This document shows, piece by piece, positions 24,311 to 25,460 of a stretch of 64,000 bases of DNA. The position numbers and the translations under genes are program-made. The notes below the pieces were generated by a model, which was not told the origin of the DNA, made no database searches, and saw only the letters and a list, made by a program, of their open reading frames with translations. Position 1 is the first letter of the stretch; every line of letters starts with the position of its first letter. Source of the stretch: the human T2T-CHM13v2.0 reference genome, Homo sapiens; NCBI RefSeq assembly GCF_009914755.1, contig NC_060926.1. One strand, given 5' to 3'.

Positions 24311-24627
24311 CTAGATAACAAAGCACAGGGAAAGGACACGCTATACTCAGACCTAGATACTGTAATCCTGGGATATGCCTGTTTTGTGTTTTGCTTTTGT
24401 TTTTTTGTTTTGTTTTGTTTTGCTTTTTTCTTTTTTTCTGTTTGTTTGGTTTTTGTTTTTAGACCTATGACGGAACCCATTTTCATGTCTGTTTGAGGTT
24501 TATTCTTAGATTCTATTCAACTAGCCCTAAGAGATCTAAACTAGTTAGAGAGTTAACTGATTATTGAACTAGTGTCAGCATCATCCCTACTGCAACTCAA
24601 AAGTTATTGAGCAGACACAAAAATGGT

Positions 24628-24675
24628 GTTAGTAAAATGCTTCCTAGGTTAGTTTTGCTGGTGTACATATTAGTA
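24628..24675 (-). promoter_or_regulatory. Cluster of three ACUAAY motifs downstream of the SS2 exon
   Basis: Plus-strand GTTAGTA at 24628, GTTAGT at 24648 and ATTAGTA at 24669. Confidence 0.55.
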
Positions 24676-24786
24676 AGGTTTAGTTGTCTGTTATTAACTA
24701 ATCACAACGTGCACCTTGTTAACATAAAAGGCGCAAGCTATTTCCAGCAACATCACTATTTGCACTATTGAGCAGCAATTGTTCAG

Positions 24787-25019
24787 CATGCAAGTGCCTA
24801 AGTCCATGCCAAAGGGAGAGAAAAGGCAAAACAACCAGTAGAAGCGGCACACGCTGATGTGCACATGCAGGAGGTACAGTACAGTTCAGAAAAGGAAAGA
24901 AAGAAAACAGGGAGAACCAAAGGAAAAACATAAAAATAAAAACAACTGCTTTGTGATGACGTAAAGATGAGTGGGTGTGGCATCTCCAGCATTCCCAAAT
25001 CAAGTTTCCATGCCATGCA
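24787..25019 (-). promoter_or_regulatory. RBFOX-type (U)GCAUG cluster downstream of the SS2 exon
   Basis: Plus-strand CATGCA at 24787, 24864 and 25014; CATGC at 24805 and 25009. Confidence 0.55.
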
Positions 25020-25332
25020 TCATGAATGGTTAGAGACTGGCTGAGCCTGCGGTCACTCGGGCCAGCCACCATTTTGTCTTATCCCGTGTTAACCACAGCT
25101 GGATGCAAAACGTTCGAAACGTTAACGATGCCCCTACAGGTGAGTTGGAAAACAGAAGTTGACAGGAACAGGTAAAAAATAAGAAGGTCAACAACAGATG
25201 AAAAGAAGGAGGTCAAAGTAAGCAGAAGAGTACCAACCGCAGTTCCTCTTTTGTTAATGATGTCTACAGTTAAAAGAAAGAAAGAAAACACACGGCAAAC
25301 CCAAAATAAGAAACAATTAGAATGATATCTAC

Positions 25333-25377
25333 CGAACAATGTAGTTTGTTTACCATAGCGTGTCCAATGCCTGAGTG
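25333..25377 (-). CDS. NRXN1: NRXN1 alternative splice site 2 (SS2) microexon: HSGIGHAM (24 nt, 25354-25377) or HSGIGHAMVNKLHCS (45 nt)
   Basis: Acceptor ttctccacaaag|CAC, internal donor ATG|GTAAAC (25353) and distal donor TCG|GTAGAT (25332). This matches the known 8/15-aa SS2 inserts of neurexin-1-alpha. Too short for the ORF track. Confidence 0.96.
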
Positions 25378-25460
25378 CTTTGTGGAGAAGGGGGGAGAAA
25401 GGAAATTAAAAACTGTGAACAGAATAACGATCGTTACTTAAAAAATATGATGGTCTCTAC

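What the first reader, a model, noticed from the sequence alone, without database searches (positions are those of the whole stretch)
24318..25383. Long-range pre-mRNA duplex joining the SS2 microexon and its acceptor to the polypyrimidine tract of the next exon
Seen: the SS2 acceptor plus exon reads 5'-ACAAAG|CAC-UC-AGG-CAUU-GGACACGCUAU-3' (25383-25355). The intron just before the next exon reads 5'-AUAGCGUGUCC-UUUC-CCU-GUGCUUUGU-3' (24344-24318, positions -34 to -8). These are reverse complements: perfect 11-bp and 9-bp helices plus a 3-bp helix, colinear and 1 kb apart. A weaker nested 7-bp helix could pair the distal SS2 donor (UAGAUAU, 25331-25325) with GUAUCUA (24360-24354). Inference: one structure would mask the SS2 3' splice site, almost all of the 24-nt exon and the downstream polypyrimidine tract at once, acting as an RNA switch on SS2 inclusion, donor choice or splicing order. 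Established: SS2 inserts alter LNS2 ligand binding. I do not know of a description of this pairing.
Basis: partly seen in the sequence, partly recalled or inferred. Interest (0 to 1): 0.88.

Follow-up and report, generated by a model that had tools for sequence, protein, structure and literature searches.

The report
NRXN1 SS2 microexon pairs downstream acceptor
The tiny alternative SS2 exon of the human neurexin-1 gene can base-pair with the splice-acceptor tract of the next exon 1 kb away, which is real and unlikely to be chance but is not yet shown to be conserved or to control splicing.

Summary
On the NRXN1 (minus) strand, 25383-25355 (SS2 acceptor plus 23 of 24 exon nt) and 24344-24318 (-34 to -8 of the next exon) form 9 + 3 + 11 Watson-Crick pairs, at -34.1 kcal/mol.

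It is the best partner of the SS2 exon in all 64 kb, at -37.5 against -30.1 for the next site. It is also sequence-specific:
- 6 of 1500 intron shuffles reach -34.
- 10 of 20,017 composition-matched shuffles of the 3' splice-site region reach -34.

Three results weaken the "RNA switch" reading:
- **Paralogues:** NRXN2 and NRXN3 lack the pairing, although they share a near-identical SS2 core.
- **Fold window:** pair probability is about 1 in 1.1-1.2 kb folds but about 0.02 once an upstream G-rich element that pairs with the SS2 acceptor region is included. The alternative state is only 6.4 kcal/mol away.
- **Missing data:** orthologues, structure-probing data and the large complementary-region catalogue could not be reached.

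I found no description in print. Verdict: a credible but unproven candidate, a new member of a known kind.

The parts
25355..25383 (-). 5' arm: the last 6 nt of the upstream intron including the SS2 acceptor AG, plus exon nt 1-23
   Evidence: Sequence read; duplex; inverted repeats I3 and I11.
24318..24344 (-). 3' arm: positions -34 to -8 of the intron before the exon that starts at 24310, covering the polypyrimidine tract and the stretch just 3' of the likely branch point
   Evidence: It is the unique best partner of the 5' arm in 64 kb.
25354..25377 (-). SS2 24-nt microexon (translates as HSGIGHAM by eye). The 45-nt form extends to 25333 through a distal donor.
   Evidence: Hub annotation. 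AG/GU signals and reading frame read. Paralogous exons found.
24149..24310 (-). Next exon, whose acceptor tract is the 3' arm
   Evidence: Hub annotation. Its translation finds NRXN3 and NRXN2 at 98% and 93% identity.
25325..25331 (-). Distal-donor side (+2 to +8) of the weak nested 7-bp helix
   Evidence: pair probability 0.15-0.21.
24354..24360 (-). Partner of the nested helix (GUAUCUA), upstream of the 3' arm
25785..25827 (-). Upstream G-run cluster, a competitor that pairs with the SS2 polypyrimidine tract, acceptor and 5' half of the exon (25404-25363)
Evidence: -45.8 kcal/mol. Similar G-run clusters lie 270-450 nt upstream of SS2 in NRXN3 and NRXN2. The pairing is largely compositional.
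25286..25300 (-). Intronic block GGUUUGCCGUGUGUU, conserved among the three paralogues and predicted as a local partner of exon nt GGACACGC
   Evidence: Alignment. Pairs 25364-25358 with 25287-25293 in the folds.

Best explanation
A genuine, NRXN1-specific cis-complementarity lets the nascent pre-mRNA close the 1-kb SS2-downstream intron with an interrupted 23-bp helix. One strand is the SS2 acceptor AG plus nearly the whole microexon. The other strand is the U2AF65-binding tract of the next exon.

My preferred mechanism is inferred, not shown. The helix would act as a kinetic brake on SS2 use. The 3' arm is made about 1 kb after the exon. Transcripts whose microexon is not yet committed when the arm emerges can zip up. 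That hides the AG and the exon body, lowers SS2 inclusion, and also delays use of the next acceptor.

The helix competes with an older pairing option of the same acceptor region with an upstream G-rich element. The effect is therefore conditional on which partner is free.

Shown here: the complementarity, its specificity, and its predicted stability in short contexts. Inferred: that it forms in cells, and the direction of the effect. I put repression against enhancement of inclusion at about 60:40.
For: - The arms are exactly as described, at -34.1 to -37.5 kcal/mol.
- It is the unique best partner in 64 kb on the transcribed strand.
- It is rare under shuffling: 6 of 1500 and 10 of 20,017. 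It is rare among non-repeat native 36-mers: 1 of 1796 outside Alu or GU-repeat sequence reaches -37.5.
- The arm boundaries coincide with splice signals: -6 to +23 of the exon, and -34 to -8 of the next acceptor.
- The helix is present in the minimum-energy and centroid folds of 1101-1231 nt, with pair probability 0.9-1.0.
- It appears as soon as the 3' arm is included in stepwise folds.
- The three exon positions that differ among the human paralogues (25374, 25369, 25366) all fall in the bulge or loop. My post hoc combinatorial estimate for this is about 0.01.
- The intron carries other marks of regulation: 3 UGCAUG in 1043 nt against 20 in 64 kb.
Against: - The 3' arm is absent from NRXN3 and NRXN2, whose acceptor regions give only -13.7 and -19.5 kcal/mol.
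- Neither paralogue has a significant partner anywhere in its SS2-downstream intron: 41 of 700 and 26 of 248 shuffles do as well. Yet the SS2 core is 93% identical over 121 nt and 90% over 68 nt. The pairing is therefore not part of the ancestral SS2 control.
- With the upstream intron included, pair probability falls to 0.016-0.029 and the duplex is absent from the 3211- and 3595-nt minimum-energy folds.
- Opening the two arms locally costs 10.8 + 15.5 kcal/mol, so the net gain is modest.
- The duplex also masks the acceptor of an exon that every annotated transcript in the hub table uses, so it cannot be a stable block.
- In a scan of 3.1 kb around SS2 it ranks only 12th of 517 windows, about the fifth distinct duplex.
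- All 23 pairs are Watson-Crick, as expected if it was found by reverse-complement matching or arose recently.
- No orthologue, probing or splicing data were available.
Confidence: 0.4

Rival explanations
1. The complementarity is fortuitous or mutationally generated and has no regulatory role. It could be a chance match between a purine-rich exon and a pyrimidine-rich acceptor tract. It could also be a short inverted copy made by a replication template switch. Either way it would be neutral or only weakly consequential.
For: - The intron-wide p is only about 1e-3 to 2e-3. Across roughly 2x10^5 human introns (my rough figure), many such matches are expected.
- It is absent from both paralogues.
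- It contains only Watson-Crick pairs.
- A stronger upstream partner outcompetes it in longer folds.
- Other equally strong duplexes lie nearby.
Against: - Composition-matched shuffles of the acceptor region rarely come close: 10 of 20,017 reach -34.
- The arm ends coincide with the exon and acceptor boundaries.
- The mismatches sit at the paralogue-variable exon positions.
- No flanking homology suggests a larger inverted duplication.
Confidence: 0.38
2. The duplex promotes SS2 inclusion and enforces splicing order. When it forms, the strong SS2 polypyrimidine tract (25404-25384) stays free while the competing downstream acceptor loses its U2AF65 site. The upstream donor is thereby steered to SS2. 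Removal of the upstream intron then dissolves part of the helix and releases the next acceptor. The helix also places the proximal donor next to the likely branch point.
For: - In the fold with the duplex enforced, 25410-25384 is fully unpaired.
- The proximal donor lies immediately 3' of the helix, and the CUGAG candidate branch point (A at 24347, read by eye) lies 2-3 nt 5' of the other strand.
- The two global states differ by only 6.4 kcal/mol of -860.6.
Against: - The SS2 AG and exon body are inside the helix.
- No data exist on splicing order.
- This rests entirely on thermodynamic models of RNAs longer than 3 kb, which are unreliable.
- The pairing of the G-rich element with the tract is mostly compositional.
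Confidence: 0.14
3. The exon-intron duplex is an ADAR substrate. The intronic arm would serve as an editing complementary sequence for adenosines of the SS2 exon, as in the classic neuronal recoding sites.
For: The architecture fits: an exon pairs with a downstream intronic element in a 29-nt imperfect helix in a neuronal gene. Helical adenosines lie at 25376, 25372, 25363, 25361 and 25356, and one in the loop at 25368.
Against: The listing of my search for neurexin with A-to-I and editing complementary sequence showed no paper on a neurexin recoding site. I saw only the listing and abstract starts. I also recall no SS2 editing site. The helix is short.
Confidence: 0.05

Closest known systems
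[quoted passage not shown] 2021, PMC8052449; passages read)
   Same: Both are long-range intramolecular pairings within 10 kb. This one falls in that paper's strongest energy class (at or below -30 kcal/mol). It overlaps a polypyrimidine tract and an acceptor, a configuration the paper reports as common.
   Different: That catalogue excludes all annotated exons except 10 nt at their edges. The 11-bp exon arm could not have been scored. The catalogue also requires phastCons conservation, which I could not test. NRXN does not occur in the main text or in the 3 readable supplements. The large BED tables could not be read.
Competing long-range structures in ATE1 (PMC7797038; only the search listing and abstract start were seen)
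   Same: One element has alternative, mutually exclusive partners. Here the SS2 acceptor region can pair with the upstream G-rich element or with the downstream acceptor tract.
   Different: ATE1 controls mutually exclusive exons through conserved, mutationally validated elements. SS2 is a cassette exon with an alternative donor, and nothing here is validated.
Exon- or splice-site-masking structures such as SMN2 ISTL1 and chicken beta-tropomyosin exon 6B (recalled, not from any call)
   Same: A distant intronic strand sequesters an alternative exon or its splice site and lowers inclusion.
   Different: Here the distant strand is itself the acceptor tract of the next exon. Both competing acceptors are affected at once.
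Structured introns that bridge splice sites and reduce the need for U2AF2 (PMC4691745; only the listing and abstract start were seen)
   Same: A helix closes the intron and brings the donor near the branch and acceptor region.
   Different: Per its abstract, those introns are defined by simple repeats. This helix is made of unique sequence and includes exon sequence.
Exon / editing-complementary-sequence duplexes of ADAR recoding sites such as GRIA2 (recalled)
   Same: An exon pairs with an element of the downstream intron in a neuronal gene.
   Different: No editing is known or shown at SS2.

Membership tests
Long-range pre-mRNA duplex that regulates splicing (PCCR-type) | Two complementary segments in one pre-mRNA, within 10 kb, with hybrid energy at or below -15 kcal/mol | tested here: met
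   The arms are 1010 nt apart, at -34.1 to -37.5 kcal/mol.
Long-range pre-mRNA duplex that regulates splicing (PCCR-type) | Complementarity beyond what composition and chance would give | tested here: met
   6 of 1500 and 10 of 20,017 shuffles reach -34. It is the best of 15,990 windows. Genome-wide multiplicity still allows chance cases.
Long-range pre-mRNA duplex that regulates splicing (PCCR-type) | Evolutionary conservation of both arms, or compensatory substitutions | tested here: inconclusive
   Human paralogues: the exon arm is conserved but the intronic arm is absent. Orthologues could not be obtained.
Long-range pre-mRNA duplex that regulates splicing (PCCR-type) | Predicted to form in the context of the whole transcript | tested here: inconclusive
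   Pair probability is 0.9-1.0 in 1.1-1.2 kb windows. It is about 0.02, or the duplex is absent, in 1.6-3.6 kb windows. The alternative state lies 6.4 kcal/mol higher.
Long-range pre-mRNA duplex that regulates splicing (PCCR-type) | In-cell evidence (proximity ligation or probing) and a splicing change on disruption with rescue by compensation | not testable with these tools
   No such data were reachable. In the 15 rows listed, the structure-mapping papers have 0 occurrences of NRXN1.
Docking-site / selector competing structures of mutually exclusive exons | An array of mutually exclusive exons, each with a selector complementary to one docking site | tested here: not met
   SS2 is a single cassette microexon with two donors (hub annotation). 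There is no exon array.
RNA bridge that delivers a distal RBFOX site | A (U)GCAUG motif within about 50 nt of one arm, with the regulated exon near the other arm | tested here: not met
   UGCAUG occurs at 25019, 24869 and 24792, which is 450-700 nt from the 3' arm.
ADAR exon / editing-complementary-sequence substrate | An imperfect exon-intron helix of about 20 bp or more | tested here: met
   23 bp in a 29-nt helix.
ADAR exon / editing-complementary-sequence substrate | Documented A-to-I editing of an exon adenosine | not testable with these tools
   No editing data were available. The listing shows no paper on neurexin recoding.
Rfam RNA families | A match to a curated covariance model | tested here: not met
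   The only hit in 23800-25800 is a sub-threshold bacterial sRNA model, E = 0.37 and 22.3 bits against a gathering score of 60.

The most novel reading that the evidence does not exclude
SS2 choice in NRXN1 is set by a bistable RNA fold.

In one state, the upstream G-run cluster (25827-25785) sequesters the SS2 polypyrimidine tract, the AG and the first half of the exon. The next acceptor is then open, and SS2 is skipped.

In the other state, the microexon itself acts as an antisense mask on the competing downstream acceptor tract while its own tract is exposed. SS2 is then included, with the upstream intron removed first.

Proteins that hold the G-runs (hnRNP H/F type factors, or a G-quadruplex) would flip the switch. 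This would be a way for an exon too short for exon definition to win acceptor competition.
Probability: 0.1. Interest if true: 0.75.

Novelty: new member of a known kind. Interest (0 to 1): 0.45.

Why it matters
SS2 inserts sit in the LNS2 domain of alpha-neurexins. A 2026 abstract seen in a search listing says that binding of Vstm2-family ligands requires the SS2 insert (PMC13728146). NRXN1 is a major neuropsychiatric risk gene.

I found no account of what controls SS2 in any listing I saw, but I could not read those papers. A validated RNA structure would supply a cis-mechanism and a steric antisense target for shifting SS2 isoforms. It would also give a way to interpret intronic variants at 24318-24344.

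It would further be an example of a structure that catalogues miss by design, because one arm is exonic. If the pairing is not conserved, it is only a curiosity.

Tried and rejected
1. **Orthologue recovery.** I searched for host contamination in prokaryote-genome and viral contig collections with a 23-nt exon-spanning pattern. There were 0 matches in each. The held human genome has no relatives.
3. **Paper reading.** It closed. The PCCR BED tables of PMC8052449 are too large to read. Whether part of the pairing is catalogued stays open.
4. **A conserved mid-intron complement.** I considered a complement of the exon shared by NRXN1 (24864-24825, -28.2) and NRXN3 (-875 from its next exon). I rejected it because there is no blastn homology. 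The energies also lie within the shuffle range (mean best -25.3, sd 2.7; 41 of 700).
5. **A significant partner in NRXN2.** Rejected; 26 of 248 shuffles do as well.
6. **An RBFOX RNA bridge.** The motifs are too far from the arms.
7. **Specific pairing of the G-rich element with the SS2 tract as a conserved helix.** It is mostly compositional. Shuffles do as well in 22 of 2500 for NRXN1, 945 of 2500 for NRXN3 and 60 of 2500 for NRXN2.
8. **The duplex after removal of the upstream intron.** RNAduplex gave -44.2. I discarded this because the longer query is not comparable.
9. **Rfam.** Nothing relevant.
10. **A lost script.** One search returned no answer. I re-ran it.

Full report
**What is there**

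NRXN1 is read on the minus strand. One search shows the SS2 microexon at 25377-25354 (CAC UCA GGC AUU GGA CAC GCU AUG). It is preceded by ...CUUCUCCACAAAG and followed by GUAAAC. The 45-nt form ends at 25333, before GUAGAU.

The next exon starts at 24310, after ...GUAUCUAGGUCUGAGUAUAGCGUGUCCUUUCCCUGUGCUUUGUUAUCUAG.

The repeat finder reports them as I3 (19 nt, 84%) and I11 (9 nt, 100%), with 1010 nt between the inner ends. RNAduplex pairs them as follows, all Watson-Crick, at -34.1 kcal/mol:
- 9 bp
- a 2-nt bulge (25374-25373)
- 3 bp
- a 4x4 loop with one A-U
- 11 bp

With a few flanking nt the energy is -37.5. The nested helix on the distal donor (25331-25325 with 24360-24354) exists but is weak, at pair probability 0.15-0.21.

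**Is it more than chance?**

I scanned a 36-nt query (25385-25350) against every 40-nt window of the 64 kb. The 3' arm is the best hit on the transcribed strand. The next distinct site scores -30.1. Outside the trivial self-antisense, the best hit on the other strand is -29.2 (15,990 windows per strand).

| Null model | Result |
|---|---|
| Dinucleotide shuffles of the 1022-nt intron | best duplex averages -25.3 (sd 2.7); 6 of 1500 reach -34; minimum -37.6; Gumbel p about 0.002 |
| Shuffles of only the last 60 nt (keeps the arm's composition) | 10 of 20,017 reach -34; minimum -38.0 |
| Random native 36-mers against the next 1 kb | 13 of 1796 reach -37.5; 12 of these are Alu or (GU)n sequence |

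The pairing is therefore specific and not merely compositional. It is unusual for a single exon. With about 2x10^5 human introns (my rough figure), chance cases of this strength must still exist. These statistics alone do not establish function.

**Paralogues**

The held human assembly let me locate NRXN3 and NRXN2. The SS2 core is strikingly conserved:
- 93% identity over 121 nt with NRXN3.
- 90% identity over 68 nt with NRXN2.
- This includes synonymous sites and an intronic block, GGUUUGCCGUGUGUU, at 25300-25286.

Homology to both paralogues stops within about 70 nt after the distal donor and resumes only at the next exon. The paralogues' acceptor regions pair with their SS2 exons at only -13.7 and -19.5 kcal/mol.

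Neither paralogue has a significant partner anywhere in the downstream intron:

| Gene | Best partner (kcal/mol) | Shuffles doing as well |
|---|---|---|
| NRXN3 | -29.4 | 41 of 700 |
| NRXN2 | -36.7 | 26 of 248 |

The pairing is therefore specific to NRXN1 and younger than the paralogue split. Its age within vertebrates is unknown. No orthologue could be obtained, and this is the main gap.

One secondary point stands out. The three exon positions that differ among the paralogues (25374, 25369, 25366) are all unpaired in the duplex. My post hoc estimate is C(6,3)/C(24,3), about 0.01.

**Would it form?**

In short windows the answer is yes:
- In 1101-1231-nt folds the helix is in the minimum-energy and centroid structures, with pair probabilities of 0.9-1.0.
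- In stepwise folds it appears as soon as the 3' arm is included.

The prediction depends on the window. A G-run cluster at 25827-25785 lies about 410-450 nt upstream of the exon. It pairs with the SS2 polypyrimidine tract, the AG and the first half of the exon (25404-25363) at -45.8 kcal/mol. Including it has these effects:
- The tract is paired to the G-rich element with a mean probability of 0.74.
- In folds of 3211 and 3595 nt the duplex is absent. The next acceptor tract instead folds onto the start of its own exon.

Enforcing the duplex costs only 6.4 kcal/mol out of -860.6, and it then leaves the SS2 tract entirely unpaired. Models of this size cannot separate the two states. Local opening costs are 10.8 and 15.5 kcal/mol for the two arms.

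G-run clusters also sit 270-450 nt upstream of SS2 in NRXN3 and NRXN2. They rank among the top one to three partners of each tract. However, composition-matched shuffles do as well in 22, 945 and 60 of 2500 trials. What is conserved is a G-rich element, not a demonstrable helix.

**Mechanism**

If the helix forms, it buries the SS2 AG and exon together with positions -34 to -8 of the next acceptor. Three things are left free:
- the SS2 tract
- the proximal donor, immediately 3' of the helix
- a candidate branch point, CUGAG, with its A at 24347 (read by eye)

The downstream exon is used by every annotated transcript in the hub table. The helix can therefore only act transiently.

I favour a kinetic brake that lowers SS2 inclusion in transcripts not yet committed when the 3' arm is transcribed. 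The opposite reading is that masking the competing acceptor favours SS2 and imposes splicing order. My data do not exclude it, and it forms the core of the most novel case. An ADAR-substrate reading is possible but unsupported.

**Literature**

Seven searches listed no paper that describes this pairing or any RNA structure at neurexin SS2. I saw only listings and abstract starts.

The exception is PMC8052449, where I read passages and searched 3 supplements. NRXN is not mentioned there. That catalogue excludes exons beyond 10 nt, so the 11-bp arm lies outside its design. Its large tables were unreadable.

Subscription journals are not in the library. Rfam has no relevant family.

**Verdict**

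It is weakened by absence from the paralogues and by a strong competing partner.
- I put the odds at about 0.54 that the helix acts on splicing in either direction: 0.40 for my preferred kinetic-brake reading and 0.14 for the inclusion-promoting reading.
- I put about 0.38 on its being fortuitous or neutral.

Noticed in passing
window 25785-25827 (minus); L006 about 375-415 nt and L007 about 270-350 nt upstream of their SS2 exons: A cluster of G-runs (GGGG..GGGG..GGG..GGG..GGGG) lies 270-450 nt upstream of the SS2 exon in all three human neurexin genes. It looks like a G-quadruplex or hnRNP H/F-type motif. It is among the top partners of each SS2 polypyrimidine tract, but mostly through composition.
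   Followed up: partly
window 27264-27290 and 26074-26100 (minus): A highly specific inverted repeat sits inside the upstream intron, with arms 1163 nt apart. It forms 15 + 11 bp including G.U pairs, at -41.0 to -42.8 kcal/mol for the arms alone. The region is unique in the genome.
   Followed up: partly
window 26977-27014 (minus): A C-rich element complementary to the G-run cluster (-46.0 kcal/mol). This gives the cluster an alternative upstream partner that crosses the 27290/26100 repeat.
   Followed up: partly
window 25019, 24869, 24792, 26282, 26017 (minus): Five of the 20 UGCAUG motifs on this strand of the 64-kb window lie within 1.5 kb of SS2. Three of them are in the 1043-nt downstream intron, which suggests RBFOX-type regulation.
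   Followed up: partly
window 25286-25300 (minus): The intronic block GGUUUGCCGUGUGUU, about 35-45 nt after the distal donor, is conserved in NRXN1, NRXN3 and NRXN2 (one change in NRXN2). It is predicted to pair locally with exon nt GGACACGC. The NRXN2 change breaks that pairing without compensation, so a protein-binding site seems more likely.
   Followed up: partly
window 24375-24480 (minus): An A-rich (AAAAC)n-like tract lies just upstream of the branch region of the next exon. It is weakly complementary (-25 kcal/mol) to a U-rich tract at 27158-27112 in the upstream intron, an arrangement that would loop out SS2.
   Followed up: no
window 25052-25217 (plus): The antisense lncRNA LOC101927089 starts inside the SS2-downstream intron. 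Its first intron contains the perfect antisense of the SS2 exon, so intermolecular pairing with NRXN1 pre-mRNA is conceivable.
   Followed up: no
window 24286-24339 (minus): In long-context folds, the acceptor tract of the next exon pairs locally with the first 25 nt of its own exon. This explains the high opening cost of the 3' arm (15.5 kcal/mol).
   Followed up: no
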